NCBI RefSeq assembly: GCF_002156965.1
Contig: NZ_CP021324.1
Span: 126,988 to 158,987, forward strand
Source of the DNA: Candidatus Nitrosomarinus catalinensis
GTDB taxonomy: Archaea; Thermoproteota; Nitrososphaeria; Nitrososphaerales; Nitrosopumilaceae
Length of the DNA stretch: 32,000 nucleotides
Reading direction: 5' to 3'
The position numbers and the translations under genes are program-made. The notes under the pieces were generated by a model. The model worked only from the letters and a program-made list of their open reading frames with translations. It ran no database searches and was not told where the DNA came from. Of this stretch, positions 926-23,708 are shown piece after piece (the stretch's first letter is position 1; every line of letters starts with the position of its first letter).

Positions 926-1061
926 TTTATTAAAAGATCAAGCGTTATCTCTTTAAAAATTCCCAAAAATGATACTTGAATAAATAAAATATGTAGTAAA
1001 AAACTTGAAATGGAAAAGATTTTTTACTATAATTCAAATATTAGCAAAAATTATTTGTTTT

Positions 1062-2000: not shown

Positions 2001-2010
2001 ACAATTCAAA

Positions 2011-2673
2011 TTAGATTTTTTCAATATCTCGTAACACAATAAATGCTTCAGCATTCATTACACCTATAGAAGATCCCCAGAAATTTGAACGTGTAACAAT
2101 AGATTTATCAGAACGTGGATGTGGATATTCATGTATTTCATTTTTGTATATTTCAACAGCAGCAATTTTTTTCTTTAAAAATGGAGTTATTTCTACAAAT
2201 AAATTTGGTTTAAAACTTGCATTACCCCATTCAGTAGAAGATGGTGTTTCATAACAAATTAAGCGTTGAATGTTAGAATTTGGTGTAGGTCGTGCAGCTA
2301 TCAGAGTAATATCAAATATTTTTTTATGATCTTGATTTACATCACCCCAAAAATGAGTATAAATTGTATCGGGATTATATTCTTCAATTATTTTTTCTAA
2401 TTTTTTTGCTAAAACTAGAGATGATATAGTATCAAGTGTCTGATCACGATAATCTAAGAATTTAATTTTTTCAATTCCTAAAATAGTTGCTACTTTTTTT
2501 GCTTGATTTTTTCTCATTACAATGTTTTTTTTAGAATTACTTCTTGCCGATTCACCATCAGCAAAAATCACAACAAATACCTGATCACCGTTTTGAGAAT
2601 GTTTTACAATAGTACCGCCCAAACCTAAAGTTTCATCATCTGGATGTGCACAGACTACTAGAATTTTTTTCAT
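2011..2673 (-). CDS. PIG-L/LmbE-family N-acetyl-sugar deacetylase
   Basis: The N-terminal VCAHPDDETLGLGGT motif and the later VNQDHKK His/Asp motif are typical of the PIG-L family. The 220 aa size fits. Confidence 0.8.
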   Translation of the reverse strand: MKKILVVCAHPDDETLGLGGTIVKHSQNGDQVFVVIFADGESARSNSKKNIVMRKNQAKKVATILGIEKIKFLDYRDQTLDTISSLVLAKKLEKIIEEYNPDTIYTHFWGDVNQDHKKIFDITLIAARPTPNSNIQRLICYETPSSTEWGNASFKPNLFVEITPFLKKKIAAVEIYKNEIHEYPHPRSDKSIVTRSNFWGSSIGVMNAEAFIVLRDIEKI

Positions 2674-2696
2674 ATTCCTAGTTTAAGTTTCAATTG

Positions 2697-3728
2697 TTAA
2701 TAATTCTTTAAATCATCTTTTAAGTTGAGAATTTCTTTAGAAATTCGTTTTGCACCTAAACCATCAACAATTTCAAGTTTTTTTGTATAGTTAAGTTCCC
2801 CAGAAATTATAGAATCCAAGAAATTACAAAGTTTTTTATCTAAATTTTTGTCAGGTAATCCTAAATTCAAACCAACTTGCTTTTTCTCCCATTGTTGTGC
2901 AGTTTTTAATTGGTGTTTTACCTGACAAACTACAGCAAAGGGTACATGCATAGTAGCAAATTCATATGAAGTGATACCCCCAGAACATAAACCATATTCA
3001 CTTGATGCAATTTCTTGATACATGTTTTTTGTTTCTTTTATAATGTGAAGAGATTTAAAATTTTTTTTCAGATTATTTAGTTGTGATAATTTTGAACCAG
3101 GCCCTAAAATTATTTTAATTTTCAGTTTTTGTTGATATTTTTGTAAATTTTTTAAAAATATTCTTACAAGATTATGTTCATCAAAACCACCAAATGTAAC
3201 AAGTAGTTTGAATTTCTTTTTAGTAGGATCTTTTTTTAAAGAGAAATTTTTATGTAAAATTTGATAAGAAGGACCAGTAAAACATTTTGTTCCAAATTTA
3301 TTGTATAATATTTTATTTGAAAATCCTATATATCCATTAAAAATTAAATCAGCTGGAAAATCAATTTTTTCTAAATCCGAAATATAAATTACTTTAACAT
3401 AATTACGTAATTTTTTTACGTATCGTTTTTGTGTTTTATATTTATCAATAATTAAAATATTGATATTTTCTTTTTTAATTATATTGATAGTTTTTTGTAA
3501 ATCATCTTCAAAGTTTGAATTTTGTCTTAATGAAAAAATTTGTTTAAATCCTGAATTGATTATTGGTTTTTTTGCTTGACCATAATCTTCTACTAAAAAG
3601 AAAATATTGTTTTTACTTAATTCTTGTGCAAGGTTAATACATCTAAAAACATGTCCAAACCCTAATTGTTTATTTTTTGCTTGTCCTCCAGAGGTTCTAA
3701 ATAATATGTTTAGTTGTTGCTTTTTCAA
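2697..3728 (-). CDS. pseG: PseG-like UDP-sugar hydrolase / GT28-type glycosyltransferase fold protein
   Basis: The N-terminus ILFRTSGGQAKNKQLGFGHVFRCINLAQEL resembles the PseG R-x-D/G...G-x-GH-x-x-R-C motif. The C-terminal half has a GT-B nucleotide-binding look (CSGGITSYEF). It lies between a NeuB-like synthase and a deacetylase. Confidence 0.55.
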   Translation of the reverse strand: MKKQQLNILFRTSGGQAKNKQLGFGHVFRCINLAQELSKNNIFFLVEDYGQAKKPIINSGFKQIFSLRQNSNFEDDLQKTINIIKKENINILIIDKYKTQKRYVKKLRNYVKVIYISDLEKIDFPADLIFNGYIGFSNKILYNKFGTKCFTGPSYQILHKNFSLKKDPTKKKFKLLVTFGGFDEHNLVRIFLKNLQKYQQKLKIKIILGPGSKLSQLNNLKKNFKSLHIIKETKNMYQEIASSEYGLCSGGITSYEFATMHVPFAVVCQVKHQLKTAQQWEKKQVGLNLGLPDKNLDKKLCNFLDSIISGELNYTKKLEIVDGLGAKRISKEILNLKDDLKNY

Positions 3729-3749
3729 ATGTATTTAACAGAAATTACT

Positions 3750-4754
3750 CTATCTTATATCCTTCCATCTAATTGATTCGTCCATTGATATTTTTCGAGT
3801 TGTTTTTTTTCCTAAAATTTTATTAAAAAATTTTGGCTCTATTCCTGTGGCCGGACGTTTAATTGATAACATGTCAAGTGTTAATTTAACACCTTTTGGA
3901 ATTGGTATACTTGCAGTAACAGAACGTCGTGCCAGAGTTTTGGTGTTCATTTCTGATGGTTGACAGGATTTAATTCCACTACCAATCAATTTTTCAACAA
4001 TGCGTATGTTTGTTATTAGATTTTTTAATTCTTTAGGGTTGGAAGAGATTGAATGATCTGGTCCACTCATTTTTTTATCTAAAGTAAAATGTTTTTCAAT
4101 TAGTTTAGCACCTCTTGCTACTGCTGCAAATGAAACTAATTCGTTATCCCCATTATCAGAAAAACCAATTGGATATGGAAATTTTTTTTGTAGTTGATTA
4201 ATAGATGAAAGATTTACTTCCTCTGTAGGCGCAGGATATGAAGAAATACTATGCATTATCATGATTTTTTTATTTTTTGTAGATTTGATAGTTTTTAGCG
4301 CATCAGATATCTCATTCATATTTGACATTCCTGTGGAAATAATCATTGGTTTCATTTTGGATGATGCATATTTTATCAATGGTAAATTAGTTAAATCACC
4401 TGAAGCAATTTTAAATGCAGGCACATTAAGTTTAGAAAGTAAATCGACAGAATCATTGCTAAATGGAGTAGATAAAAAAATTATTTTTTTACTTTTAGCA
4501 TATTTTGATAACTCTGTAAATTCACTATCTATTAACTCAAGTTTTTTGAAAAGTTTAAAATAATCAGATTTTTTTGCAATAAAATTTTCTGTTTTAAAAG
4601 TTTGAAATTTTATTGCATCAGCACCACATTTTTGTGCAGTATTGATTAATTTTTTAGCAATATTGATATCGCCATTATGATTTAGACCAGCTTCGGCAAT
4701 AATAAAAACTGGAGAATCTTCACCGACAATTTTTTTTGAGATTCGAATTTTCAT
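3750..4754 (-). CDS. neuB: NeuB/PseI/LegI-family nonulosonic acid synthase with C-terminal SAF domain
   Basis: Motifs IIAEAGLNHNGD, GADAIKFQTF, STGMS and IEKHFTLD are present. A C-terminal SAF-like segment (RRSVTASIPIPKGVKLTLDMLSIKRP) follows. The usual G-x-SDH-T motif reads GFSDNG here. Confidence 0.85.
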   Translation of the reverse strand: MKIRISKKIVGEDSPVFIIAEAGLNHNGDINIAKKLINTAQKCGADAIKFQTFKTENFIAKKSDYFKLFKKLELIDSEFTELSKYAKSKKIIFLSTPFSNDSVDLLSKLNVPAFKIASGDLTNLPLIKYASSKMKPMIISTGMSNMNEISDALKTIKSTKNKKIMIMHSISSYPAPTEEVNLSSINQLQKKFPYPIGFSDNGDNELVSFAAVARGAKLIEKHFTLDKKMSGPDHSISSNPKELKNLITNIRIVEKLIGSGIKSCQPSEMNTKTLARRSVTASIPIPKGVKLTLDMLSIKRPATGIEPKFFNKILGKKTTRKISMDESIRWKDIR

Positions 4755-4838
4755 ATTTATGTTATCACTTGATGGTAATTTAATGATCCTTTATTAATTA
4801 AATACTGAAAAATAAAATAATCAAAAAATAGAGGAAAA
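4755..4838. promoter_or_regulatory. Divergent A/T-rich intergenic region (likely archaeal TATA/BRE promoters for the neuB-like operon and the GNAT/radical SAM/phosphonate genes)
   Basis: An 84-nt gap separates divergently oriented starts. It has several TATA-like boxes (TTTAATGA, TTATTAATTAAATA, AAATAAAATAA). No experimental support. Confidence 0.25.
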
Positions 4839-5258
4839 TTGTTGGGTATAAAACTTCGTCAAGCGGAAAAAAGAGATTGGGATTTAATTTTAGATCTTCG
4901 TAACGCATCATACAAGTTTTTTTACAAACAAAATGAACCAATTTCACATAATGAGCACTACAAATACATGGAAAATCAAATCAAAAACAATAACTTTCAT
5001 CAATGGATAATTACTCATAATAACGAGGATGCAGGATATGTAAGAATTTTGGATTCTGATGTAAGTATAATGGTAGATAAAGAATATCAAAATAAAGGAA
5101 TTGCATCAATTGCATTATTTTTACTGGAAAAAGAAGCAAAAACATTAGGAATTAAAAAATTAGTAGCTTTAGTTGCACCTGAGAATAAAAGTAGTCAAAA
5201 AATTTTTCAAAAAAATAATTATATTCTGAAATTGAATTTATTTGAAAAAGATCTTTAA
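4839..5258 (+). CDS. pseH: GNAT-family N-acetyltransferase, PseH-like
   Basis: IKLRQAEKRDWDLILDLRN... resembles the PseH N-terminus (LR..xxxDxxxxxxWRN). The GNAT acetyl-CoA loop YQNKGIAS (Q/R-x-x-G-x-A/G) is present. The start is TTG and no in-frame ATG lies nearby. Confidence 0.6.
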   Translation: MLGIKLRQAEKRDWDLILDLRNASYKFFYKQNEPISHNEHYKYMENQIKNNNFHQWIITHNNEDAGYVRILDSDVSIMVDKEYQNKGIASIALFLLEKEAKTLGIKKLVALVAPENKSSQKIFQKNNYILKLNLFEKDL

Positions 5259-5305
5259 TGAGTCAATATTCAAAAGAAATCACATATTTATTTATAATAT
5301 AACAA

Positions 5306-6364
5306 ATGAGATTCCATATGCAACCAAAGGCTAACATTTTTCAAGGATATACTGAGTTTCATAATGAACATTATTACAAATGGGAAAAAGCTCAATCTCA
5401 AAAGTATTTCGAATACAGAAAAAAATGGGTAGAAAATGCAGACAAACTAATTATTGAAAAATATCCGCTACATTTGGACATAGGAATTTCTAATGTTTGT
5501 AATCTAGAATGTACATTTTGTGCAAGAACAATTAAAGTTCAAAAAGATGATTGGAGGAAAGTCATGCATATGGATATCAATTTATTTAAAAAAATTATTG
5601 ATGAAGCTGTTGAATTAGGTACCTATTCAATTAATATGAATTTGTTATGTGAGCCTTTAATTCATCCTAAACTATTAGAAATGATCAAGTATGCAAAAGA
5701 AAAAGGAATTATTGATGTTCATTTTCATTCGCATGGAGGTTTGTTAAATGAAGAAAAAGCTAATTTATTATTAGATTCTGGATTGGACAAACTTTTCTTT
5801 TCAATTGATTCTCCTTATAAGGATAAATATAATAAAATTCGAGTTTTATCTGATTTTGATAATGTAATTGCAAATTTAAAAAGATTTAAAGAATTAAGAG
5901 ATGCAAGGGGACAACTTAATCCAATGATAAGAGTCAGTATGATCCAATTTCCAGACATTGAAGAACAAGAATTAATTGATGCAAAGAAATTCTTTTTGCA
6001 ATTTGCAGATGCAGTTGGATTTCAACAATACGTTGATCCACATAGAGAAATTGGTAAAGATAGAACTTATCCATCAGAATATAAATCAAAATTTGTTTGC
6101 CAACAGCCTTTTACACGCCTTTCAATAATTGAGGATGGTAGGGTATCACCTTGCTGTAATGATTATGATCAAGAACTGATAATTGGTGATGTAAGTAAAC
6201 AGAGTTTACAAGAAATTTGGGAATCAAATGAACTAGCTCAATTTAGAGATGTTATGAAAAAAGGGGATTTTTATAAGATTCATGCTTGTGCTAATTGTGA
6301 GATGGCAGTAAATGCAGACGAAGATAAACAAACTCCCATACAAAAATTGGAACCTACTATTTAG
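5306..6364 (+). CDS. Radical SAM protein with C-terminal SPASM-type auxiliary cluster domain
   Basis: CNLECTFC is the CxxxCxxC radical SAM motif. The C-terminal Cys-rich region (CQQPF...GRVSPCCNDY...LQEIWES...ACANCE) is typical of SPASM/twitch domains. Confidence 0.8.
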   Translation: MRFHMQPKANIFQGYTEFHNEHYYKWEKAQSQKYFEYRKKWVENADKLIIEKYPLHLDIGISNVCNLECTFCARTIKVQKDDWRKVMHMDINLFKKIIDEAVELGTYSINMNLLCEPLIHPKLLEMIKYAKEKGIIDVHFHSHGGLLNEEKANLLLDSGLDKLFFSIDSPYKDKYNKIRVLSDFDNVIANLKRFKELRDARGQLNPMIRVSMIQFPDIEEQELIDAKKFFLQFADAVGFQQYVDPHREIGKDRTYPSEYKSKFVCQQPFTRLSIIEDGRVSPCCNDYDQELIIGDVSKQSLQEIWESNELAQFRDVMKKGDFYKIHACANCEMAVNADEDKQTPIQKLEPTI

Positions 6365-6400
6365 TTTACAAAAAATTCATTGGTATGAAAAAGAGATAAA

Positions 6401-7726
6401 ATGACTAAACCCAATATTTTATTTATTTTAATTGATTCTATGCGAGCGGATAAATTTTTTCCTAATAAAACACATTCACCATTTCAAAACTTAATTGATC
6501 AAGGTGCGTATTTTAAACAAAATATTTCCTCTTCTGACTACACACAAACTGGTATTGGGAGTATTTTTACTGGTTGTTATCCCTTTGATGCAGGATTAAA
6601 AGCACAAAATTATCAAAAATTATATTCTAAACAAACTAACTATATTGAATTTTTAAAACAAAATGGTTATCATGCTTATACAACAATGGCAGAATCAGTT
6701 TCGGAGTTAGGTTTTTCAAAATTATTTGATAATGCAGATCAATCATATCCAAATTCATTACGTCTATTTGATGGATTAGGAAAAAAAATTATTAGTTTTT
6801 TAAAATCAATAAGCTTAGAAAATCCCTGGTTTTATTTTATTCATTTAGAAGATCTTCATTTACCTGTAAGTTTACCATCAAAATATGAACATGTAAAATA
6901 TTCTGAAAGATATGATATTGCAATATCAGAAATTTATTCATGGATAAATAAAATGATTCAGTTAGTAGATCTTAAAAATACTCTAATTGTTATAACATCT
7001 GATCATGGTGACTATATCCCTTCAATCGATGACACCAAAAATTCAAATCAAAATATCTTGAGAACTAAATCTATAATTAGAAATAAAATCCCTTCACCCA
7101 TTTATGATAAAATTTCAATAACAAAACGTACTCTCACCAAGAATATTCAAAAACATAAAACTAAATCCAATTATGAAAAACGTGCAATTGACAGTAGAAC
7201 TGGAAAAAATCGTCATCTTTACGATGAAATAATTAGAACTCCATTACTTTTTTTTGGTTATGATATCAAACCAAAAAAAATTCTTGAACAACAAGTAAGG
7301 AGTATTGATATTTTTCCTACTATTTTAGATGTTATTGGTATTGATAAAATTAATTTCAATATTCATGGCCAAAGTCTTAAACCGTTATTAAACAATAAAA
7401 TCTTGCCAGAATTTCCAGTTTATCTAGAAAGTACTGTTTTTTCGACAGTACAAAAAAATGCTATTCCTCATTTGGGAATTCGAACTCCACAATTCAAATA
7501 TTTTAGAAGAGTAGATAATCCTAAAAAAAGTGTTCATCTTTATGATTTAATTAATGATCCATTTGAGGAGAATAATATTTTTTCAAAAAATGAAAAACTT
7601 ATTTTTGAAATGGAGAAAGAAATTTTAAAAATCAAAAAAAATAATTTTATGCCTAACCTAGAAGATCTTGATGATTTAGAAACAAAAAAAGTTGAAGATG
7701 AGTTAAGAAAACTTGGATATATTTAA
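6401..7726 (+). CDS. Alkaline-phosphatase-superfamily 'sulfatase-like' hydrolase/transferase with Thr at the nucleophile position
   Basis: ILFILIDSMRAD (metal Asp), ITSDHGD and the sulfatase-type spacing are present. The segment YTQTGIGSIFTGCYP aligns with sulfatase C-T-P-S-R-x-x-x-x-T-G-R-Y-P but places Thr where Cys/Ser (formylglycine) would be. No C/S-x-P-x-R motif exists. Confidence 0.8.
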   Translation: MTKPNILFILIDSMRADKFFPNKTHSPFQNLIDQGAYFKQNISSSDYTQTGIGSIFTGCYPFDAGLKAQNYQKLYSKQTNYIEFLKQNGYHAYTTMAESVSELGFSKLFDNADQSYPNSLRLFDGLGKKIISFLKSISLENPWFYFIHLEDLHLPVSLPSKYEHVKYSERYDIAISEIYSWINKMIQLVDLKNTLIVITSDHGDYIPSIDDTKNSNQNILRTKSIIRNKIPSPIYDKISITKRTLTKNIQKHKTKSNYEKRAIDSRTGKNRHLYDEIIRTPLLFFGYDIKPKKILEQQVRSIDIFPTILDVIGIDKINFNIHGQSLKPLLNNKILPEFPVYLESTVFSTVQKNAIPHLGIRTPQFKYFRRVDNPKKSVHLYDLINDPFEENNIFSKNEKLIFEMEKEILKIKKNNFMPNLEDLDDLETKKVEDELRKLGYI

Positions 7727-7797
7727 AAATTTTAATTAAATTAGATTTTTAATTATCAACATAACTATTTTTAAGCCCTAATCATCTTTTCTTATTA

Positions 7798-9159
7798 TTG
7801 GAAAATTCTTCAAATAATTTAAAAAGATCAGGATATAATTTTCTTAGTTTACTTAACGATATTAAACGTCGACCTGAGGATGCAGCTAATGAATTAGGTG
7901 TAGAAATTGAAGAAATTAATGCAATAATTGAAGGTAGAAAAGAAATTTCTTTTGAATTAATTTTAAAAGCAATTAGTATATGGCCAGTTAATCCAAGAGA
8001 TTTTTTTCTGATTAACGATGATTGTCCTAATGGAGTCAAAATAATGAGATCCAAAGAATCTATTCAATCTTCTAGGATTATGGATAGAGGTGGATTTCCA
8101 TACTATGAATACCGAGATACTGCTATGAGTAGTGTTTCATTATTTAGACCAGAATGGATTGAAGAACTTTGTTATGTTGACAACAATGATGCTGAAAACA
8201 CAAAAGTTCAATGGAATAAAGGACATTTCATGCATCAATTTACCTATTTTATCGGTGATGTAAATTATTATTATATTGGAGAAGATAATCAAAAAAAAGT
8301 TTTTGTCACAAAGACTGGAGATTCTGTATATGGAACTCCATTCAGACCTCATACTTTTACAACTAGAATAAATGCTGAAAAAAATGGATTAATTTTAGCA
8401 CTAACATATGGAAATAAAATTGCTGCAGATACACAGCAAGAATTATCTGCTATTGGTCCAGAATTAGGCATTCAATATCACCTAGATTTTGAAACTATAG
8501 AAAAAGCATTTTCATCCATACTTAAATTTAGTATTGATGCTGCAAGTATTTCAATTGAAGAATTATCAAATAGAACCGGTATTGAAGAATCAAGAATTAA
8601 TGAATTTTTAATTGGAACTTTCCCTGTCCCAGGATTTGATACAATCCAAAATCTTGCTAAAGCATTATCTATCAACTCTCGTGATTTATTACCTCCAGAT
8701 ATTATTGAAGATAAAATTTTACCAAAAACATTTACTGATTCTAAACGGTGGTATTACCCATCAGATTCTAAAGCTTATGAAATGATAGAATTATCTCAAT
8801 CTCGCAACCTTCCATTTTCTAAATCTTTAGAAATTAATATTTTAGAAGAATCAAATGATATTCTGGATCTTAAAGTTGGATTACATCAATGGCTTTATAA
8901 TATTGGCAAATCCCCTATTCGCTTGAATTGGAAATTAGGTGAAAAAATTTATCAAGAAAATATTTTACCAAATGATTCAGTTTACATTAAACCATTTGTA
9001 GAACATAGTATGAGAGGATCTGGAAAATTAATGGTTCTTAGAATTGGTGGCCGTATGACAGGAGATGCTCAAAGAGAATTTTCTAATCTTAGTAAACATG
9101 ATGCCCATAGAGCTATTAATGAAACTCAAATGTGGTTTGATGCTAAAACTGAGCATTAA
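7798..9159 (+). CDS. mpnS: MpnS/HEPD-family non-heme Fe(II) 2-hydroxyethylphosphonate dioxygenase (methylphosphonate synthase homologue, bi-cupin with two HTH-like subdomains)
   Basis: Long stretches match what I recall of Nitrosopumilus maritimus MpnS: NDIKRRPEDAANELGV, IWPVNPRDF, SSRIMDRGGFPYYEYRDTAMS, FRPEWIEELC, QWNKGHFMHQFTYFIG, LILALTYG, LKVGLHQWLYNIG, YIKPFVEH and LRIGGRMTGDAQRE. A 2-His-1-Gln triad is present (H143, Q147, H185). The start is TTG. The gene sits beside ppm/ppd/Fe-ADH. Confidence 0.85.
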   Translation: MENSSNNLKRSGYNFLSLLNDIKRRPEDAANELGVEIEEINAIIEGRKEISFELILKAISIWPVNPRDFFLINDDCPNGVKIMRSKESIQSSRIMDRGGFPYYEYRDTAMSSVSLFRPEWIEELCYVDNNDAENTKVQWNKGHFMHQFTYFIGDVNYYYIGEDNQKKVFVTKTGDSVYGTPFRPHTFTTRINAEKNGLILALTYGNKIAADTQQELSAIGPELGIQYHLDFETIEKAFSSILKFSIDAASISIEELSNRTGIEESRINEFLIGTFPVPGFDTIQNLAKALSINSRDLLPPDIIEDKILPKTFTDSKRWYYPSDSKAYEMIELSQSRNLPFSKSLEINILEESNDILDLKVGLHQWLYNIGKSPIRLNWKLGEKIYQENILPNDSVYIKPFVEHSMRGSGKLMVLRIGGRMTGDAQREFSNLSKHDAHRAINETQMWFDAKTEH

Positions 9160-9200
9160 GAATAACATTTAAGATAGAAAAATAAAAAATATTTGAAATT

Positions 9201-10304
9201 TTGAAAAAAAATCTAATAATTATTACAATTGATGGAGCTAGATTTGATAGGGCTAAACATTCTAAAATTTATAATAAAAACAACTCTGTTTTCTTGTCAC
9301 AATGTATTACTTATGGCCCACACACAATTGCAGCAATGCATGCAATTTTTAGTGGTAGTTATGGTAGTAGAACAGGAACAAATAGTTATTGGTCCACTTA
9401 TAAATTTAAAAAACAAGAATTTCATACTTTAACTGAATATTTGAGTGAAGAAAATTATTTTACTCATGCAGATATACATAGTGAAATTGTAATTCCTAAA
9501 CAAGGATTTGATATTTTTAATGTATATGATGAAAATGAAAATTTAACATTACGGCATTCAAAATTATTGGAAAAATTTTCTTCAGAGTTTAAATCTAAAA
9601 ATTTTTTCTTGTATTTACATTATGATAAAATTCATTCAGGCATTACAGAATCTGTTTTAAAAAAATTTGATAATTTTAGTAGTGAATATTTTAAAAACCA
9701 AGAAAATAATAAAAAAAATTATGATAAATTATTTTATGAATCTGAATTATATCTAGAACAAATATTTAATCAATTAGAATCTTTAAATCTTTTAAAAAAT
9801 TCCCTTGTACTTGTTCTTTCTGATCATGGGATTAGTGTTGGTGAAAAATTTGGTGAACGAGCTTATGGTGCATTTTGTTATGATTACACATTAAAGACAT
9901 TTTGTTATGTTTATAATTCTGAATTAAATTCTCGAGAAGTTCCAAATCAAGTAAGAACAGTTGATTTCATGCCTACAATCTTAGAATTACTACAAATTCC
10001 TTTAAAATCAAATTTTCAAATTCTTGATGGTGAGTCTTTGATTCCTCTCATTAAGGGTGAAAAATATGAAGAAAAAATTGCATTTTCTGAAACTGGAAAT
10101 CCATTAAAAGAAAATAAACCACCAAAAGAACCAAACACTAAATCTGTTCGTACTTCTGAATGGAAATTAATTTACAATACCTATGATAATACTAAAGAAT
10201 TATACAATTTACAATCTGATCCTGATGAGAAAGAAAATTTAGTTGGGACGAATTTGGAAATTGAAGAAATATTGTGGTTAGAATTACAAAAACATATGGT
10301 ATAA
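9201..10304 (+). CDS. Second alkaline-phosphatase-superfamily 'sulfatase-like' hydrolase/transferase with Thr nucleophile
   Basis: IIITIDGARFD and LSDHGIS are present. GPHTIAAMHAIFSGSYG aligns Thr with the sulfatase formylglycine position. The start is TTG. Confidence 0.75.
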   Translation: MKKNLIIITIDGARFDRAKHSKIYNKNNSVFLSQCITYGPHTIAAMHAIFSGSYGSRTGTNSYWSTYKFKKQEFHTLTEYLSEENYFTHADIHSEIVIPKQGFDIFNVYDENENLTLRHSKLLEKFSSEFKSKNFFLYLHYDKIHSGITESVLKKFDNFSSEYFKNQENNKKNYDKLFYESELYLEQIFNQLESLNLLKNSLVLVLSDHGISVGEKFGERAYGAFCYDYTLKTFCYVYNSELNSREVPNQVRTVDFMPTILELLQIPLKSNFQILDGESLIPLIKGEKYEEKIAFSETGNPLKENKPPKEPNTKSVRTSEWKLIYNTYDNTKELYNLQSDPDEKENLVGTNLEIEEILWLELQKHMV

Positions 10305-11039
10305 TTAAGAAAATAACTTTCTAGCGCGCTCTAAATCTTGAACTGTATCAATTTCACACCAATTCCCATTAATTTCTATAGGAGTAATGGAATTATTATT
10401 ATCTATTAAATCCTGTAACATATTTGTTAAATACCATTTTTTAATAATTTCTATTTTATTCTTAGATTTTTCTAAATTTGTATAATGTTTTAAAAATTCT
10501 TTTGATGCTTTTTGTGATAATTTAATTATTCCAATAAATTCACTAATTTTAAAATTATTTACTGGAGTTAGATTTTTCATAATTTTAAAAACTAAATTAT
10601 TTTTAATTAATACTAAATCTGCTTGTGAAATTGGATGTTCAGTTCTTCCAATATACTTTTTTTCCCAATCTGAATCTACTGCAATATTAAAATTATTCTC
10701 TGAATTAATAATTTTAGATATTACTTGATTATCAAATAAAACATCTGAAAATAAAATAAGTAATTCATCATTAAAATAATTTCGTCCCTCCATCAAACTA
10801 CCTAATTGTTCATGATTTTCATAAAAATTATCTTTCACATATTTTATTTTTTTTTCTAAAAATTTTTCATGATTTGGACCAGTAATTATGATAATTTCTG
10901 TTACTCCATTAGATTGAAGTAACTCTATTTGTCGTTTTAATATTGATTTTCCATTAATGTCTATCAATGATTTAGGCATTTTTTTTGTAAGGTTACCTAA
11001 TCTAGTACCATAACCTGCTGCAATTATTAATGCTTTCAT
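10305..11039 (-). CDS. Nucleotidyltransferase (LicC/PntC-like cytidylyltransferase fold), last gene of the ppm operon
   Basis: The N-terminal MKALIIAAGYGTRLG...PKSLI is the G-x-G-T-R-(L/M) NTP-transferase signature. It lies 6 nt downstream of ppd-beta on the same strand. Confidence 0.8.
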   Translation of the reverse strand: MKALIIAAGYGTRLGNLTKKMPKSLIDINGKSILKRQIELLQSNGVTEIIIITGPNHEKFLEKKIKYVKDNFYENHEQLGSLMEGRNYFNDELLILFSDVLFDNQVISKIINSENNFNIAVDSDWEKKYIGRTEHPISQADLVLIKNNLVFKIMKNLTPVNNFKISEFIGIIKLSQKASKEFLKHYTNLEKSKNKIEIIKKWYLTNMLQDLIDNNNSITPIEINGNWCEIDTVQDLERARKLFS

Positions 11040-11045
11040 GATTTT

Positions 11046-11594
11046 CTATATTGATTTTATTACTCTGTCTCTAATACTTTTAGGATTCCATGAAACCCTT
11101 TTACTTCTTTCTTTACTTGTAGATATTTTTATCAAAAGAAATATTGGCCCTTGTAATTTTTTAATATCTTTTAAAACTGATATTAATTTAGTTTTTGTTT
11201 GAATTACAAAAATTTTATAATTTGCAGTCTTTGCAATTTTTGCTAAATTTATTTGAGATGAATTTGTTGGTTGACTTCCTGTAGATTCATGACTATTGTT
11301 ATCAAATACTATATGTACCAAATTTTTTGGTTTTAAACTCCCAATTGTAACTAAAGATCCCAAATTCATTAAAATATTTCCATCACCATCAAAAACAAAA
11401 ATTTGTTTTTTAGGATTTTTTAATGCAATACCTAATCCAATTGAAGATGCTAATCCCATTGAACCAATCATGTAAAAATTTGATTCTTTATCATTTGTTT
11501 CAAATAAATCTCTACTCATAAACCCATTTGCTGACACAATGGGATTTTTACCAATGAATTTTCCAATTATTGTTACTGCTTCTTTTCTAATCAT
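11046..11594 (-). CDS. ppd: Phosphonopyruvate decarboxylase, beta subunit (TPP diphosphate-binding domain)
   Basis: GDGNILMNLGSLVTIGSLKPKNLVHIVFDNN is the GDG-X(24-27)-NN thiamine-diphosphate motif. It overlaps the alpha subunit by 8 nt (CATGATTAG). Confidence 0.85.
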   Translation of the reverse strand: MIRKEAVTIIGKFIGKNPIVSANGFMSRDLFETNDKESNFYMIGSMGLASSIGLGIALKNPKKQIFVFDGDGNILMNLGSLVTIGSLKPKNLVHIVFDNNSHESTGSQPTNSSQINLAKIAKTANYKIFVIQTKTKLISVLKDIKKLQGPIFLLIKISTSKERSKRVSWNPKSIRDRVIKSI

Positions 11595-12075
11595 GAAACA
11601 TTCTCCTGATTATGAGAGCACATGGCTTTTTTTCTTTTAATTGTTTTAAAGCCCAATCACACTTAACTTTCCAGTTTTTTTCTGTCAAAACTTGTGATTT
11701 TAATCCAATAATTTTTAATAATTCAGGTTGAATTTTACCAATTTTCAAATGTTCTGGAGCATCATCTGCAAGATATCCTCTCCATCCAATTAAAAAAATT
11801 AATGGAATTTCATAAAGTTGTATGAGGGAAGTGATAGTACTAATAGAATTAGCAAAACCTGCATTTTGCATAAAAACTAAAGAGTTACTTTTTGAAAGAC
11901 TCATTCCAGCTGCAATTCCTATTGCTTCTTCTTCTCTAGTTGCAATTATTGAATTATTATTTTTTAAACATTCATCAATAAAATGTTTTAATGTAGAATC
12001 GGGAACACCAACAAAATTTTCAATTTTTTTATTTTTTAAATAATGAAATATTTTTCGTTGTTCTTCTTCATTCAA
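11587..12075 (-). CDS. ppd: Phosphonopyruvate decarboxylase, alpha subunit (TPP pyrimidine-binding domain)
   Basis: GVPDSTLKHF...REEEAIGIAAG...MQNAGFANS...IPLIFLIGWRG...DAPEH resembles the ComD/Ppd N-domain. The TTG start overlaps the ppm stop (TTGA). Confidence 0.85.
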   Translation of the reverse strand: MNEEEQRKIFHYLKNKKIENFVGVPDSTLKHFIDECLKNNNSIIATREEEAIGIAAGMSLSKSNSLVFMQNAGFANSISTITSLIQLYEIPLIFLIGWRGYLADDAPEHLKIGKIQPELLKIIGLKSQVLTEKNWKVKCDWALKQLKEKKPCALIIRRMFHD

Positions 12076-12971
12076 TTTATGTAACCCATTTTTTTCAAAT
12101 CCCGCTCAATGTCTGATTCTTGTTTTTTAATTTCATACATTTCTTGAAGATGAAAAATTTTATCCATTGTTGTCATATTGGTTTCAACTTCACTAAGACT
12201 TTTTGCAGATGACAATTGTTTTAGATGTTCCATCATTGCCCAATGTGCTACTCTTAATGATTGATTTGCATAAATTACCATAGAGATTTTATTTTTTTGA
12301 AGTTCATCTATTGTAACAGTGGGATAAGTTGTAGGAATAGCAATTATAGGAATTTTTCCATCCCAAGAATTACAAAATTCAAAGATCTCTTTTGGAGAAT
12401 TTTTCTTAGAATGAATTAGTATTGCATCTGCACCTGCATTTTCATAAGCTGTTGCACGCTTTAATGCCTCCTTAATTCCTTGACCAGATATCAATGCTTC
12501 AATTCTAGCAATAATCATGAAGTTAGGATTATTTTTTGCTGTTTTTCCTGCAATTATTTTTGCAACAAAATCTTTTTCAGAAAGTAACTCTTGCTTACCA
12601 TCTTCAAGTAAGCTATTTTGTTTTGGAAAAATTTTATCTTCTATACATATTGCTGCAATTCCTGCTGATTCATATTTTTTCACTAAATGACTTACGTTGC
12701 TTGGACCACCAAAACCTGTATCACAATCTGCAATTATTGGTATTGAACATGCATCAGCCATACTGGATGCTGTAGAAAGAAATTCAGTCATAGTCAAAAT
12801 ACTTGCATCAGGTAATGCGTGAGTTGCAGAAATCGCAAAACTTCCTGCCCAAACAGCATCAAAATCACTTAATTCTACTAATTTTGCAGACATTGCATCA
12901 AAAGCGCCTGCAACCTTCAAAATTGGTTTCTCCTTTAATTTCGTGCGTAAAATATTTGCTCCTTCATTCAT
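12072..12971 (-). CDS. ppm: Phosphoenolpyruvate phosphomutase (PEP mutase)
   Basis: It has the isocitrate-lyase/PEP-mutase fold. CIEDKIFPKQNSL contains the EDK-X5-NS signature that separates true PEP mutases from other family members. ADCDTGFGG is also present. Confidence 0.92.
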   Translation of the reverse strand: MNEGANILRTKLKEKPILKVAGAFDAMSAKLVELSDFDAVWAGSFAISATHALPDASILTMTEFLSTASSMADACSIPIIADCDTGFGGPSNVSHLVKKYESAGIAAICIEDKIFPKQNSLLEDGKQELLSEKDFVAKIIAGKTAKNNPNFMIIARIEALISGQGIKEALKRATAYENAGADAILIHSKKNSPKEIFEFCNSWDGKIPIIAIPTTYPTVTIDELQKNKISMVIYANQSLRVAHWAMMEHLKQLSSAKSLSEVETNMTTMDKIFHLQEMYEIKKQESDIERDLKKMGYIN

Positions 12972-13034
12972 GTGAATCGTACTAATGTTACTGATGATTT
13001 AATCTATAATAACAGATCTTTTTAACACAATTAT
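12972..13034. promoter_or_regulatory. Divergent promoter region between the ppm operon (-) and the Fe-ADH gene (+)
   Basis: A 63-nt A/T-rich gap separates the two starts. The TATA-like AATCTATAATAA (about 13001-13012) lies about 25-30 nt upstream of the GTG start at 13035. TTTAAT/ATTAAA on the other strand lies upstream of ppm. Confidence 0.3.
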
Positions 13035-13979
13035 GTGTGGAGTATAAAACAACCTTCAAAAATAATTTTTGGAGAGAACTCGGTACGAGAGTTTACATTT
13101 CCTGAGAAATGTTTAATCATTACTTCTAAAGGGGCAAAATCTAGGGGTTGGTTAGATTATTCCGGATTAAATAATCAATTAATTTTTGAGAATATTGAAT
13201 CAAATCCTTCTATAGAAACAACTAAAGAAATAATTTCAAAATTTCAAAATTCTGATTTTACTCATGTTGTTGGAATGGGTGGGGGTAGTTCAATGGATGT
13301 AGCTAAATACTGTGCATTTAAAATGAATAAATTAAAAATTATGATACCGACCACTTTTGGCAGTGGAAGTGAAGTGACTAGAATTTCGGTTCTAAAAGTT
13401 GATGGTAAGAAAAGAAGTTTTCATGACGATAAATTATTTGCAGATATTGCAATAATTGATTCTCATTTCTTAGAAAACACTCCTGATTTAATACGGAAAA
13501 ATTCATTTGTTGATGCATGTGCTCAATGTACTGAAGCATATGATAGTAAAAATTCTAATTATTATACAAAATTTCTTTGTGAAAAAGCATTTGATCTTTT
13601 GGAGAGTGGATTAAATTCAAATAATTCTAAAAAAATTGTATTGGGATCTTTGATTTCTGGATTAGGATTTGGTAATTCATCTACAACTTTGGGACATGCT
13701 TTATCTTATGTTTATTCTAATGAAGGTTATTCTCACGGTCATGCATTAGCTTTTACTACTTTAATTTCTCATAAATTCAATAATTCTAAATTCTTTAAAA
13801 GATTTACCTCATTAATCCAAAAATTAAATTTTGAAAGAATTCATCTAAATGAAAATTCTGATTTTGCATCTGAAATAATTTATCAAGATAGAAAGCATTT
13901 AGATAACAATCCGAAATCCATATCAAAATCAGATATCTCTAATCTATTACAAGAAATTGAAAAAATTAATTTAATTTAA
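13035..13979 (+). CDS. Group III iron-containing alcohol dehydrogenase (phosphonoacetaldehyde reductase candidate, giving 2-hydroxyethylphosphonate)
   Basis: GMGGGSSMDVAKY is the GGGSxxDxAK motif. His-rich metal motifs are present (GHALSYVYSNEGYSHGHALAF). The start is GTG. Context is divergent from ppm-ppd. Confidence 0.8.
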   Translation: MWSIKQPSKIIFGENSVREFTFPEKCLIITSKGAKSRGWLDYSGLNNQLIFENIESNPSIETTKEIISKFQNSDFTHVVGMGGGSSMDVAKYCAFKMNKLKIMIPTTFGSGSEVTRISVLKVDGKKRSFHDDKLFADIAIIDSHFLENTPDLIRKNSFVDACAQCTEAYDSKNSNYYTKFLCEKAFDLLESGLNSNNSKKIVLGSLISGLGFGNSSTTLGHALSYVYSNEGYSHGHALAFTTLISHKFNNSKFFKRFTSLIQKLNFERIHLNENSDFASEIIYQDRKHLDNNPKSISKSDISNLLQEIEKINLI

Positions 13980-19069: not shown

Positions 19070-19073
19070 TAAA

Positions 19074-19901: not shown

Positions 19902-19902
19902 A

Positions 19903-20703: not shown

Positions 20704-20704
20704 A

Positions 20705-22364: not shown

Positions 22365-22406
22365 TTGAAATGGGTTTATTTCTATCTAATTTTTATACTA
22401 ATTATG

Positions 22407-23705: not shown

Positions 23706-23708
23706 AAA

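What the first reader, a model, noticed from the sequence alone, without database searches (positions are those of the whole stretch)
5306..13979. Complete 2-hydroxyethylphosphonate-derived phosphonate cluster embedded in surface-glycan genes
All four committed steps are encoded together:
- PEP mutase with the EDK-X5-NS signature (12072-12971).
- Split TPP-dependent phosphonopyruvate decarboxylase (11046-12075).
- Fe-alcohol dehydrogenase (13035-13979), giving 2-HEP.
- An MpnS/HEPD-family dioxygenase (7798-9159).

Around them are a nucleotidyltransferase, two Thr-type alkaline-phosphatase-superfamily enzymes and a radical SAM/SPASM protein. Immediately upstream lie nonulosonic-acid sugar genes.

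This is the architecture described for Nitrosopumilus maritimus methylphosphonate synthesis (Metcalf et al. 2012). There the small C1 phosphonate is thought to be esterified to an exopolysaccharide, which would be the source of the marine aerobic methane precursor. The acceptor, the transferase and the roles of the accessory genes remain unresolved, so any variant cluster is informative.
Basis: partly seen in the sequence, partly recalled or inferred. Interest (0 to 1): 0.85.

Follow-up and report, generated by a model that had tools for sequence, protein, structure and literature searches.

The report
Archaeal phosphonate cluster with switched dioxygenase
This is a marine ammonia-oxidising archaeon's copy of the known methylphosphonate gene cluster, but its key enzyme carries the two residues that normally mean "makes hydroxymethylphosphonate", so this common ocean lineage may not supply the methane precursor it is credited with.

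Summary
The core, 6401-13979, matches the Nitrosopumilus maritimus SCM1 methylphosphonate (MPn) cluster gene for gene. It sits at the same chromosomal site, next to PGI/PMI and MtnA, below pseudaminic-acid-type sugar genes. The flanks are 85-92% identical to Nitrosopumilus MAGs, so the source is an uncultured Nitrosopumilaceae archaeon.

Two corrections:
- **Radical SAM/SPASM gene (5306-6364).** It belongs to the sugar module. Its homologues sit in NeuB/CMP-sugar clusters of Nitrosopumilus and Pelagibacter that show no phosphonate genes, and its model is BtrN-like.
- **Dioxygenase (7798-9159).** It is closest to NmMpnS (E 2.7e-163) and keeps the His-Gln-His iron triad. However, it has Tyr157/Gly179 where MpnS requires Phe162/Ile184. 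Tyr/Gly is the published class II HEPD signature.

All 120 nearest homologues lack the Phe/Ile pair. The 120 nearest to NmMpnS all have Phe/Ile or Phe/Val. The Tyr/Gly clade is monophyletic (200/200) and nested inside the MpnS radiation. Two of the only eight clade-diagnostic columns are these specificity sites.

Best reading: PEP to 2-HEP to hydroxymethylphosphonate plus formate, not MPn, followed by CMP activation and transfer to a glycan. The product is inferred, not measured.

The parts
6401..7726 (+). Sulf1: soluble sulfatase-fold (alkaline-phosphatase superfamily) protein with a Thr48 nucleophile (TQTGIGSIFTG). It has no formylglycine motif and carries a conserved C-terminal ...VEDELRKLGYI tail.
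   Evidence: PF00884 E 9.2e-28. Thr48 aligns to the catalytic Cys/Ser of sulfatases 6hr5 and 6pt6. It is 40% identical to the SCM1 gene at the same position.
7798..9159 (+). 2-HEP dioxygenase of the MpnS/HEPD bicupin family, 453 aa with a TTG start. It has the His-Gln-His iron triad plus the class II HEPD Tyr/Gly pair.
   Evidence: E 2.7e-163 to 6b9s (MpnS) and 4.4e-82 to 6b9r (HEPD). Marker pattern is HQYGH. It falls in a monophyletic Tyr/Gly clade.
8224..8352 (+). Active-site stretch of the dioxygenase. Codons: H143 (8224-8226), Q147 (8236-8238), Y157 (8266-8268; Phe162 in NmMpnS), G179 (8332-8334; Ile184 in NmMpnS), H185 (8350-8352).
   Evidence: Direct translation gives NKGHFMHQFTYFIGDVNYYYIGEDNQKKVFVTKTGDSVYGTPFRPHTF.
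9201..10304 (+). Sulf2: second soluble sulfatase-fold protein, with a Thr42 nucleophile (TIAAMHAIFSG). It lies next to the dioxygenase in most of the thaumarchaeal loci examined.
   Evidence: PF00884 E 2.5e-20. Thr is conserved in 9 of 10 orthologues/paralogues, including SCM1, and aligns to the sulfatase Cys at profile level. It is 59% identical to the SCM1 copy.
10305..11039 (-). LicC/PntC-like nucleotidyltransferase. Probable CMP activation of the phosphonate.
   Evidence: PF12804 and PF00483. Best solved relative is 6pd1, annotated 'Nucleotidyl transferase/aminotransferase, class V' (which I recall as the T. denticola PntC fusion), E 2.4e-14, followed by 2ggo and then LicC 1jyk.
11046..11594 (-). 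Phosphonopyruvate decarboxylase beta half (TPP-binding C-terminal domain). It overlaps the alpha half by 8 nt.
   Evidence: TIGR03297 positions 172-340, E 3.5e-52. It is 76% identical to SCM1.
11587..12075 (-). Phosphonopyruvate decarboxylase alpha half (TPP N-terminal domain). It overlaps PepM by 4 nt.
   Evidence: TIGR03297 positions 2-152, E 6.2e-32. It is 81% identical to SCM1.
12072..12971 (-). PEP mutase. The EDKIFPKQNS motif at residues 111-120 corresponds to window 12612-12641 on the minus strand.
   Evidence: PF13714 E 3.7e-57. 5unc E 5.9e-75. Motif confirmed. It is 79% identical to SCM1 PepM.
13035..13979 (+). Fe-dependent alcohol dehydrogenase (PhpC/Pdh type) that reduces phosphonoacetaldehyde to 2-HEP. 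It is divergently transcribed from PepM across a 63-bp gap.
   Evidence: PF00465 E 2e-27. Metal ligands D160, H221 and H234 are kept, with Gln164 at the second His position. It is 72% identical to the SCM1 copy.
2..6364 (.). Adjacent pseudaminic-acid-type nonulosonic-acid module. This is the probable glycan context, not part of the phosphonate pathway. Genes: PseC-like (2-925+, cut by the window start), formyltransferase (1005-2000+), PIG-L deacetylase (2011-2673-), PseG (2697-3728-), NeuB (3750-4754-), GNAT (4839-5258+), BtrN-like radical SAM/SPASM (5306-6364+).
   Evidence: PseG 167.9 bits against a cut-off of 153.55. Model pLDDT 93.7, best fold match BtrN 4m7t.

Best explanation
Window 6401-13979 is the phosphonate cassette of an uncultured marine Nitrosopumilaceae archaeon. 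It is orthologous in position and gene order to the N. maritimus SCM1 methylphosphonate cluster.

**Steps supported by sequence homology to characterised enzymes**
- PepM converts PEP to phosphonopyruvate.
- The split Ppd decarboxylates it to phosphonoacetaldehyde.
- The Fe-ADH reduces that to 2-hydroxyethylphosphonate (2-HEP).

**Inferred step: the product of the dioxygenase**
- The enzyme binds Fe(II) through His143/Gln147/His185 and cleaves the C1-C2 bond of 2-HEP.
- The two residues that hold the Gln in place in MpnS (Phe162, Ile184) are Tyr157 and Gly179 here. This is the class II HEPD state.
- The methylphosphonate radical is therefore expected to rebound onto Fe(III)-OH, giving hydroxymethylphosphonate (HMP) plus formate. 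In MpnS it instead abstracts H from formate to give methylphosphonate plus CO2.

**Inferred downstream steps**
- The LicC/PntC-like nucleotidyltransferase activates the phosphonate as a CMP conjugate.
- The two soluble Thr-nucleophile alkaline-phosphatase-superfamily proteins move the phosphonyl group onto a sugar or glycan, probably through a covalent phosphonyl-Thr intermediate. The neighbouring pseudaminic-acid-type module likely builds that glycan.

The enzyme belongs to a large, purely environmental thaumarchaeal clade. That clade arose from within Phe/Ile MpnS enzymes and switched both determinants.
For: **Cluster identity**
- The core is colinear with SCM1 (L051) and with Nitrosopumilus loci L013 and L014.
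- It sits at the same site beside PGI/PMI, MtnA and SufT. Those flanks are 85-92% identical to Nitrosopumilus MAGs.
- The flanks also carry archaeal-type Asd, archaeal-type PGI and cobalamin genes.

**Marker residues**
- Direct translation shows H143, Q147, Y157, G179 and H185.
- Published criteria are MpnS = H148/Q152/F162/I-or-V184/H190 and HEPD = A/Q152, I/Y162, E/G184 (PMC9381506 Table S2).
- A Tyr-Gly motif is described as 'diagnostic of class II HEPD' (PMC8976061).

**Clade pattern**
- Of the 120 nearest homologues, 113 are Y/G, 6 are F/G, 1 is F/Q and none is F/I.
- The 120 nearest to NmMpnS are 118 F/I and 2 F/V.
- Across 110 full-length family representatives, 76 are F/I, 19 are Y/G and mixed states are rare. 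The two sites are coupled.

**Phylogeny**
- The Y/G clade is monophyletic in 200 of 200 bootstraps. 'All F/I monophyletic to its exclusion' was recovered in 0 of 200.
- In a wider midpoint-rooted tree its sister is the thaumarchaeal F/I clade. Seven further outgroup layers follow, all F/I apart from single L/F and F/L sequences, before any other Y/G sequence appears.

**Where the divergence is concentrated**
- Only 8 of 457 columns are fixed differently between the two thaumarchaeal clades.
- These include positions 162 and 184, plus 182. By my arithmetic, the chance that both named sites fall among 8 of 457 is about 3e-4.

**Modular divergence from SCM1**
- Early genes are conserved: PepM 79%, PpdA 81%, PpdB 76%, FeADH 72%.
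- Late genes are not: dioxygenase 55%, Sulf2 59%, NTP transferase 47%, Sulf1 40%.

**Downstream enzymes**
- The NTP transferase's best solved relative is 6pd1, which I recall as the T. denticola PntC fusion.
- Thr sits at the nucleophile position in both sulfatase-fold proteins.
Against: - No product was measured, and no enzyme of this clade has been assayed.
- As I recall it, the Tyr/Gly-to-Phe/Ile rule comes from mutating S. albus HEPD into an MpnS (Born et al. 2017). I could not open that paper, and I know of no reciprocal test in an MpnS scaffold.
- Overall the protein is far closer to NmMpnS than to any characterised HEPD, and the cluster is otherwise the MPn cluster.
- No HMP-specific tailoring gene (HMP dehydrogenase or aminotransferase, as in argolaphos or phosphinothricin clusters) is present.
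- Sulf2 and the NTP transferase do not split by Y/G versus F/I type.
- The transferase role of the sulfatase-fold proteins and the CMP activation rest on family analogy only.
- The trees are neighbour-joining, not maximum likelihood.
Confidence: 0.6

Rival explanations
1. It is a genuine methylphosphonate synthase. Other residues of the MpnS scaffold keep Gln147 on the iron despite Tyr157/Gly179, and the cluster makes MPn esters exactly as in N. maritimus.
For: - It is closest to NmMpnS (E 2.7e-163, against 4.4e-82 for HEPD).
- It is nested in the MpnS radiation.
- The cluster is colinear with SCM1 and shows no HMP-tailoring genes.
- JGI labels clade members 'methylphosphonate synthase'.
- Qin et al. 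2020 treated deep-marine thaumarchaeal lineages as mpnS.
Against: - Both published MpnS determinants are tested here and not met.
- They changed in concert to exactly the class II HEPD residues and are then conserved in 113 of 120 relatives. This points to selection for a different state, not drift.
- They are two of only eight clade-diagnostic columns.
- The database names come from the sources' own annotation, not from any functional test.
Confidence: 0.28
2. The enzyme gives a mixture of HMP and MPn, or acts on a different substrate such as CMP-2-HEP or a glycan-bound 2-HEP ester, so the free-acid HEPD/MpnS dichotomy does not apply.
For: - A subclade carries the half-switched F/G state (6 sequences) and SAR202 relatives carry Y/I. 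This suggests intermediate phenotypes exist.
- A nucleotidyltransferase is always adjacent. From my own knowledge, fosfomycin biosynthesis uses cytidylyl-2-HEP as a substrate.
Against: - From the literature as I recall it, NmMpnS and HEPDs act on free 2-HEP.
- Apart from the two determinants, much of the protein is conserved with NmMpnS: 145 columns are identical and conserved in both clades.
Confidence: 0.1
3. The two sulfatase-fold proteins are hydrolases that trim or recycle phosphonate esters, rather than transferases that install the phosphonate on a glycan.
For: - The closest solved relatives are all hydrolases: sulfatases at E down to 1.2e-41, and phosphonate monoester hydrolases at about 1e-20.
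- Neither protein has the membrane domain typical of phosphoethanolamine transferases or LtaS (sequence inspection).
Against: - The formylglycine motif is replaced by Thr in both paralogues and in SCM1. In this superfamily that goes with phosphoryl rather than sulfuryl chemistry (established knowledge).
- They are conserved, biosynthesis-linked partners of the dioxygenase in the thaumarchaeal loci examined.
- No other candidate transferase is present in the core.
Confidence: 0.3

Closest known systems
Nitrosopumilus maritimus SCM1 methylphosphonate cluster (Metcalf et al. 2012; locus L051 = CP000866 134143-155516)
   Same: - The gene order and orientation are identical: Sulfatase-dioxygenase-Sulfatase-NTP transferase-PpdB-PpdA-PepM-FeADH.
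- Ppd is split in both, the Fe-ADH is short (311-314 aa) in both, and nonulosonic-acid genes lie upstream in both.
- The 2-HEP-forming enzymes are 72-81% identical.
   Different: - The dioxygenase is only 55% identical and carries Tyr/Gly instead of Phe162/Ile184.
- Late genes are much more diverged, at 40-59% identity.
- The window has a GSDH-pentapeptide gene inserted after the Fe-ADH. It lacks SCM1's Rieske, Lactamase_B_3, CBS, GT2 and sulfotransferase genes.
Class II HEPD (2-His-1-Gln hydroxyethylphosphonate dioxygenases, e.g. S. albus HEPD 6b9r and argolaphos AlpG)
   Same: - Same His-Gln-His triad and the diagnostic Tyr/Gly pair.
- Same substrate family.
   Different: - The window protein matches 6b9r far more weakly (E 4.4e-82) than NmMpnS (E 2.7e-163).
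- It is phylogenetically separate. The window clade is nested among Phe/Ile MpnS sequences, so the Tyr/Gly state was acquired secondarily.
- There is no HMP dehydrogenase or aminotransferase nearby. The context is cell-surface glycan, not antibiotic biosynthesis.
'Deep marine thaumarchaeotal mpnS lineages' of Qin et al. 2020 (PMC7490402)
   Same: - These are environmental thaumarchaeal MpnS homologues.
- They form lineages distinct from those of cultured coastal and terrestrial AOA.
   Different: - That study read them as MPn synthases and a deep-ocean methane source. The accessible text does not discuss the specificity residues.
- I could not verify that their lineages are identical to the Tyr/Gly clade.
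PntC/LicC phosphonate and phosphocholine cytidylyltransferases (6pd1, 1jyk)
   Same: 6pd1 (which I recall as the PntC fusion) is the best solved relative and LicC (1jyk) the third. The gene sits next to Ppd, as in many phosphonoglycan clusters.
   Different: - Similarity is low (E 2.4e-14).
- The expected substrate lacks the amine of 2-AEP or choline.
- The protein is a stand-alone 244 aa, not a fusion.
BtrN / DesII / BlsE carbohydrate-modifying radical SAM enzymes (relevant to ORF 5306-6364)
   Same: - It has the CX3CX2C motif plus a C-terminal auxiliary-cluster (twitch/SPASM) domain.
- The best fold match is BtrN 4m7t, E 1.1e-15.
   Different: - Identity is only 14-17%.
- It has five C-terminal Cys (265, 283, 284, 328, 331).
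- The substrate is unknown, and the gene sits in nonulosonic-acid clusters.

Membership tests
PEP mutase (PepM/Ppm) | EDK-X5-NS active-site motif | tested here: met
   EDKIFPKQNS at residues 111-120.
PEP mutase (PepM/Ppm) | Score above the TIGR02320 equivalog cut-off | tested here: inconclusive
   304.2 bits against a cut-off of 319.55. It is still the best-scoring family, ahead of phosphonopyruvate hydrolase at 255 bits. The protein is 79% identical to SCM1 PepM.
PEP mutase (PepM/Ppm) | Adjacent phosphonopyruvate decarboxylase to pull the unfavourable equilibrium | tested here: met
   PpdA overlaps the PepM stop by 4 nt.
Methylphosphonate synthase (MpnS, EC 1.13.11.73) | 2-His-1-Gln iron triad (H148, Q152, H190 in NmMpnS) | tested here: met
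   H143, Q147 and H185.
Methylphosphonate synthase (MpnS, EC 1.13.11.73) | Phe at position 162 | tested here: not met
   Tyr157. Criterion from PMC9381506 Table S2.
Methylphosphonate synthase (MpnS, EC 1.13.11.73) | Ile or Val at position 184 | tested here: not met
   Gly179. Criterion.
Methylphosphonate synthase (MpnS, EC 1.13.11.73) | Converts 2-HEP to methylphosphonate plus CO2 | not testable with these tools
   Needs an enzyme assay with 31P-NMR.
Class II HEPD (EC 1.13.11.72, 2-His-1-Gln type) | His-Gln-His triad with the Tyr/Gly pair | tested here: met
   Pattern HQYGH. The motif is called diagnostic in PMC8976061.
Class II HEPD (EC 1.13.11.72, 2-His-1-Gln type) | Groups phylogenetically with characterised class II HEPDs | tested here: not met
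   The window clade is nested among F/I MpnS sequences. SaHEPD and the other Y/G representatives lie eight nodes away.
Class II HEPD (EC 1.13.11.72, 2-His-1-Gln type) | Converts 2-HEP to hydroxymethylphosphonate plus formate | not testable with these tools
   Needs an enzyme assay.
N. maritimus-type phosphonoglycan cluster | Gene content and order Sulf-dioxygenase-Sulf-NTPtr-PpdB-PpdA-PepM-FeADH beside surface-sugar genes | tested here: met
   Direct comparison with SCM1 locus L051 and with L013/L014.
S1 formylglycine sulfatases | C/S-x-P-x-R formylglycine motif | tested here: not met
   No such motif in either protein. Thr48 and Thr42 occupy the nucleophile position.
Anaerobic sulfatase-maturating enzyme (considered for radical SAM 5306-6364) | A co-encoded sulfatase substrate carrying the Cys/Ser-x-P-x-R motif | tested here: not met
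   The neighbouring sulfatase-fold proteins are Thr-type. The best NCBIfam score is 108.6 bits against a cut-off of 380, to an unrelated maturase. Homologues sit in NulO sugar clusters.
Phosphonopyruvate decarboxylase (TIGR03297) | The two halves together cover the whole profile | tested here: met
   The alpha half covers profile positions 2-152 and the beta half 172-340 of 360. Each half alone falls below the full-length cut-off, as expected for a split enzyme. SCM1 is split the same way.

The most novel reading that the evidence does not exclude
The thaumarchaeal 'mpnS' lineage that is common in ocean metagenomes, and that IMG annotates as methylphosphonate synthase, is not an MPn synthase. 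It is a secondarily evolved HEPD that arose from within MpnS by switching Phe162 to Tyr and Ile184 to Gly. If so, these archaea decorate their surface glycans with hydroxymethylphosphonate. Gene-based estimates of archaeal methylphosphonate supply, and hence of aerobic methane supply, would be inflated. HMP esters would be an unrecognised pool of marine phosphonate.
Probability: 0.5. Interest if true: 0.8.

Novelty: new variant of a known kind. Interest (0 to 1): 0.62.

Why it matters
Methylphosphonate made by marine archaea is the leading explanation for methane supersaturation in oxygenated seawater. Surveys count 'mpnS' homologues to map that potential. One reports mpnS in up to 7.7% of the mesopelagic community and links phosphonate and MPn production potential to Thaumarchaeota (PMC9381506). 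Another calls deep thaumarchaeal lineages a methane source for deep water (PMC7490402).

This window belongs to a large thaumarchaeal clade. Its 120 nearest clusters stand for 819 member sequences, against 398 for the 120 nearest to NmMpnS (a rough comparison only). In that clade both residues that define MPn synthesis have flipped to the HEPD state.

If the published rule holds, part of the counted 'MPn potential' actually makes hydroxymethylphosphonate. C-P lyase does not turn that compound into methane.

The clade would also be a natural experiment in which product specificity was re-switched inside one enzyme scaffold. A single heterologous assay would test it.

Tried and rejected
**Papers I could not open**
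- I tried to read Born et al. 2017 (DOI and PMC5901744) and Metcalf et al. 2012 (PMC3466329). Neither is held.
- The marker rule is therefore cited from PMC9381506 Table S2 and PMC8976061. The mutagenesis result rests on my memory of the abstract.

**Hypotheses rejected**
- *The radical SAM/SPASM is an anaerobic sulfatase-maturating enzyme for the two neighbouring sulfatases.* Both are Thr-type with no C/S-x-P-x-R motif. The radical SAM gene's homologues live in nonulosonic-acid clusters that show no phosphonate genes.
- *The Fe-ADH (314 aa) is truncated.* The length is conserved in SCM1 (311 aa) and in L043, L044 and L048.
- *The source is SAR11, given about 27% GC.* The flanks are Nitrosopumilus-like at 85-92% identity, with archaeal-type Asd and PGI. 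A Y/G-clade contig carries fibrillarin.

**Searches that led nowhere**
- The GTDB species-representative scan found no close genome. The best hit is 61% identical, in a Marine Group I single-cell genome.
- I looked for genes that co-vary with Y/G versus F/I type. Sulf2 and the NTP transferase do not split by type, and no HMP-tailoring gene recurs.
- The window has no tRNA genes and no Rfam matches.
- Literature searches for a thaumarchaeal HEPD or HMP found nothing beyond PMC9381506. That paper lists marine hepD only in Pelagibacterales plus one Prochlorococcus.

Full report
**1. What is in the window**

Family searches confirm the assignments:
- Radical SAM + SPASM protein, 5306-6364.
- Two sulfatase-fold proteins, 6401-7726 and 9201-10304.
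- A 453-aa protein with a central HTH-like segment, 7798-9159.
- A nucleotidyltransferase, 10305-11039(-).
- TPP_enzyme_C (11046-11594, -) and TPP_enzyme_N (11587-12075, -). These match the two halves of the phosphonopyruvate decarboxylase model TIGR03297.
- PEP_mutase, 12072-12971(-), E 3.7e-57.
- Fe-ADH, 13035-13979.

Further checks on individual genes:
- PepM carries EDKIFPKQNS at residues 111-120. Its best solved relative is a PEP mutase, 5unc, E 5.9e-75. It scores just under the NCBIfam equivalog cut-off, 304.2 against 319.55 bits.
- The 453-aa protein matches N. maritimus methylphosphonate synthase (6b9s) at E 2.7e-163. It matches S. albus HEPD (6b9r) at 4.4e-82 and HppE at 7.8e-08.
- Upstream genes are PseC-like (cut by the window start), a formyltransferase, PIG-L, PseG (above cut-off), NeuB and a GNAT. 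This is a pseudaminic-acid-type nonulosonic-acid pathway.

**2. Whose genome, and is it the N. maritimus architecture?**

The flanking genes place the window in Nitrosopumilaceae.
- MtnA is 85-90% identical to Nitrosopumilus sp. MAG chromosomes. The SufT/PqqD fusion is 87-92% identical and an SDR 83-84% identical.
- The flanks also carry archaeal-type Asd, archaeal-type PGI/PMI and cobalamin genes.

I recovered the real SCM1 locus through its MpnS protein (L051 = CP000866 134143-155516).
- Its order is Sulfatase(454)-MpnS(457)-Sulfatase(374)-NTP transferase(247,-)-PpdB(182,-)-PpdA(162,-)-PepM(299,-)-FeADH(311,+).
- The window matches this order gene for gene. Both have NeuB/CMP-sugar genes upstream.
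- In the Nitrosopumilus MAG loci (L013, L014, L022), as in the window, PGI/PMI, MtnA and SufT follow downstream. In SCM1, five other genes separate the Fe-ADH from PGI/PMI.
- A near-identical contig exists in a JGI metagenome (L043, 97% identical, colinear over 20 kb).

The short Fe-ADH and the split Ppd are normal for this cluster.

**3. The radical SAM/SPASM gene is not part of the phosphonate module**

- It is absent from SCM1, from L001, and from other phosphonate loci of the same dioxygenase clade (L044, L048).
- Its homologues, at 34-79% identity, sit among NeuB, CTP_transf_3, DegT and epimerase genes. This holds in a Nitrosopumilus MAG (two copies, L049), in a 70-kb marine contig and in Pelagibacter (L050). 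No phosphonate genes appear in the fetched stretches.
- An AlphaFold model built on 31 sequences has pLDDT 93.7. It is closest to BtrN (4m7t, E 1.1e-15). SuiB, BlsE, MoaA, anSME and DesII follow.
- It cannot be a sulfatase maturase for its neighbours, because they lack the formylglycine motif (section 6).

I assign it to the sugar module. The phosphonate module starts at 6401.

**4. The dioxygenase carries HEPD determinants in an MpnS scaffold**

In NmMpnS numbering, the alignment gives His148, Gln152, Tyr162, Gly184 and His190. In the window protein these are H143, Q147, Y157, G179 and H185, at codons 8224-8352.

Published criteria separate the two enzymes at exactly these sites:
- MpnS has F162 and I/V184. 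HEPD has I/Y162 and E/G184 (PMC9381506 Table S2).
- 'Tyr-Gly ... diagnostic of class II HEPD' (PMC8976061).

From my memory of Born et al. 2017, which I could not open, Phe162 and Ile184 pin the iron-binding Gln. Mutating the Tyr/Gly of S. albus HEPD to Phe/Ile turned it into an MpnS.

**5. This is a clade property, not an oddity of one sequence**

Marker states by neighbourhood:

| Set | Marker states |
|---|---|
| 120 nearest database clusters to the window protein | 113 Y/G, 6 F/G, 1 F/Q, none F/I |
| 120 nearest to NmMpnS | 118 F/I, 2 F/V |
| 110 full-length representatives at 50% identity | 76 F/I, 19 Y/G, 15 other |

- Several members of the window's clade are named 'methylphosphonate synthase' by JGI. 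One NCBI member is a Thaumarchaeota MAG protein. One contig carries fibrillarin, an archaeal gene.
- In the 50%-identity library, the best hit to the window protein is an F/I sequence (P0121, 59% identical), and no closer Y/G representative is listed. Coarse clustering and KO annotation probably merge the two types.
- Among GTDB species representatives, almost every locus is F/I. Only a Marine Group I single-cell genome (L001, 61% identical) and a Pyrinomonadaceae MAG are Y/G. Three SAR202 loci are Y/I.

Neighbour-joining trees place the clade inside the MpnS radiation:
- The Y/G clade is monophyletic in 200 of 200 bootstraps.
- 'All F/I sequences monophyletic to its exclusion' was never recovered, 0 of 200.
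- In a wider midpoint-rooted tree its sister is the thaumarchaeal F/I clade that includes NmMpnS. Seven further outgroup layers follow, all F/I apart from single L/F and F/L sequences. Only then does the branch holding SaHEPD and the other Y/G sequences appear.

The Tyr/Gly state here is therefore secondary, arising from within MpnS.

The divergence is concentrated at the specificity sites:
- I compared 121 Y/G with 120 F/I thaumarchaeal sequences. Only 8 of 457 columns are fixed differently: 120, 162, 182, 184, 422, 427, 438 and 448.
- A further 145 columns are conserved and identical in both clades.
- Two of the eight are the specificity determinants, and a third lies two residues from position 184. 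By my arithmetic, both named sites would fall among 8 of 457 by chance about 3e-4 of the time.

The cluster is also modular relative to SCM1:

| Gene | Identity to SCM1 |
|---|---|
| PpdA | 81% |
| PepM | 79% |
| PpdB | 76% |
| Fe-ADH | 72% |
| Sulf2 | 59% |
| Dioxygenase | 55% |
| NTP transferase | 47% |
| Sulf1 | 40% |

The enzymes that make 2-HEP are conserved. The dioxygenase and the downstream genes are much more diverged.

**6. Accessory enzymes**

- *NTP transferase.* Its best solved relative is 6pd1 (E 2.4e-14), annotated 'Nucleotidyl transferase/aminotransferase, class V'. I recall this as the Treponema denticola PntC fusion. 2ggo and then LicC follow. This fits nucleotidyl (CMP) activation of the phosphonate.
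- *Sulfatase-fold proteins.* Both keep the metal ligands: D11/D12 near the N-terminus and a DHG motif. Thr sits where sulfatases have the formylglycine Cys/Ser, as T48 in TQTGIGSIFTG and T42 in TIAAMHAIFSG.
  - This is supported by pairwise and profile alignments to solved sulfatases, and by conservation in 9 of 10 orthologues including SCM1.
  - Neither has an N-terminal signal or membrane domain.
  - In this superfamily a Thr nucleophile goes with phosphoryl transfer (established knowledge). I therefore infer phosphonyl transfer to a sugar or glycan. Hydrolysis remains a live alternative, because all close solved relatives are hydrolases.
- *Fe-ADH.* It keeps D160, H221 and H234, with Gln164 at the second His position. 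This satisfies the three-residue PhpC criterion of PMC9381506.

**7. Most likely mechanism**

- PEP to phosphonopyruvate (PepM).
- To phosphonoacetaldehyde (PpdA/B, translationally coupled through 4-nt and 8-nt overlaps).
- To 2-HEP (Fe-ADH).
- To hydroxymethylphosphonate plus formate (Tyr/Gly dioxygenase).
- To a CMP conjugate (NTP transferase).
- To a glycan ester (Sulf1/Sulf2), probably on the pseudaminic-acid-type glycan encoded next door.

The first three steps rest on strong homology. The product of the fourth step is an inference from residue markers. The last two steps are by analogy.

**8. Rivals**

- (a) It is still an MpnS. This is supported by overall similarity, by the unchanged cluster and by the absence of HMP-tailoring genes. 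It is weakened by failure of both defining residues and by their concerted, conserved switch.
- (b) The enzyme gives mixed products or uses an activated substrate. F/G and Y/I intermediates do exist.
- (c) The sulfatase-fold proteins are hydrolases.

**9. Novelty**

- The cluster type is known (Metcalf 2012).
- Distinct deep-marine thaumarchaeal 'mpnS' lineages have been noted and read as MPn sources (PMC7490402).
- Marine hepD has been reported only from Pelagibacterales and one Prochlorococcus (PMC9381506).
- I found no accessible report that a thaumarchaeal lineage carries HEPD determinants. I could not read Born 2017 or its supplement, where this may have been seen.

I rate it a new variant of a known kind. 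Interest is moderate to high because a single assay would test it, and because it bears on how 'mpnS' counts are used in the marine methane question.

Noticed in passing
window 5306-6364 (+); L049 6403-7449 and 11707-12750; L050 8001-9014: A conserved family of radical SAM/SPASM(twitch) proteins of about 348 aa. It has CX3CX2C at residues 65-72 plus Cys265, 283, 284, 328 and 331. It is embedded in nonulosonic-acid (NeuB/CTP_transf_3/DegT) clusters of both Nitrosopumilus and Pelagibacter. The model has pLDDT 93.7 and its best fold match is BtrN. This is probably an uncharacterised radical sugar-modifying step in marine NulO biosynthesis.
   Followed up: partly
window 13990-15984 (-): A 664-aa fusion of a glucose/sorbosone-dehydrogenase beta-propeller (GSDH, residues 59-385) with a long pentapeptide-repeat region (about residues 400-640). 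It is inserted between the Fe-ADH and PGI/PMI. It is present in L043 but absent at this position in SCM1 and in Nitrosopumilus loci L013/L014.
   Followed up: partly
window 19059-24719: An ebo-like gene set: xylose-isomerase-like TIM barrel, TatD, a second TIM barrel, an EboC-like UbiA prenyltransferase (143 bits, below the NCBIfam cut-off of 250) and an NPP-type phosphodiesterase, plus a Zn-ADH. It lies between SufT/PqqD and an SDR that are directly adjacent in Nitrosopumilus L013/L022, so it looks like a second insertion. Homologues at 42-76% identity lie near the MpnS clusters of groundwater Thaumarchaeota (L002; L004 has only three of them).
   Followed up: partly
window 29621-30460 (+): The CobQ (cobyric acid synthase) ORF is only 279 aa. 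It matches profile positions 1-248 of 480, which is the ATPase half. CbiB starts 4 nt before its stop. No glutamine-amidotransferase half is visible in the window, so the gene is either split or truncated.
   Followed up: no
window 7688-7726 (C-terminus of Sulf1); L051 8546-9910; L044 6531-7928; L048 5473-6915: The Sulf1 paralogue group, but not Sulf2, ends in a conserved acidic/basic tail ...KK(V/I)EDEL(R/K)KLGY(I/L). Sulf1 also has an insertion of about 60 residues after the DHG metal motif. The function of either feature is unknown.
   Followed up: no
P0061, P0066, P0078, P0082, P0086, P0089 (F/G); L024, L026, L029 (SAR202, Y/I): Half-switched marker states exist. One thaumarchaeal subclade has Phe162/Gly184, together with GHFQHQVTYF and GDSNYG changes. 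SAR202 Chloroflexota enzymes have Tyr162/Ile184. These are natural intermediates for testing which residue controls the product.
   Followed up: no
window 1005-2000 (+) and 2011-2673 (-): An ArnA/Fmt-like formyltransferase and a PIG-L-family de-N-acetylase sit inside the pseudaminic-acid-type module. This suggests an N-formylated rather than N-acetylated nonulosonic acid.
   Followed up: no
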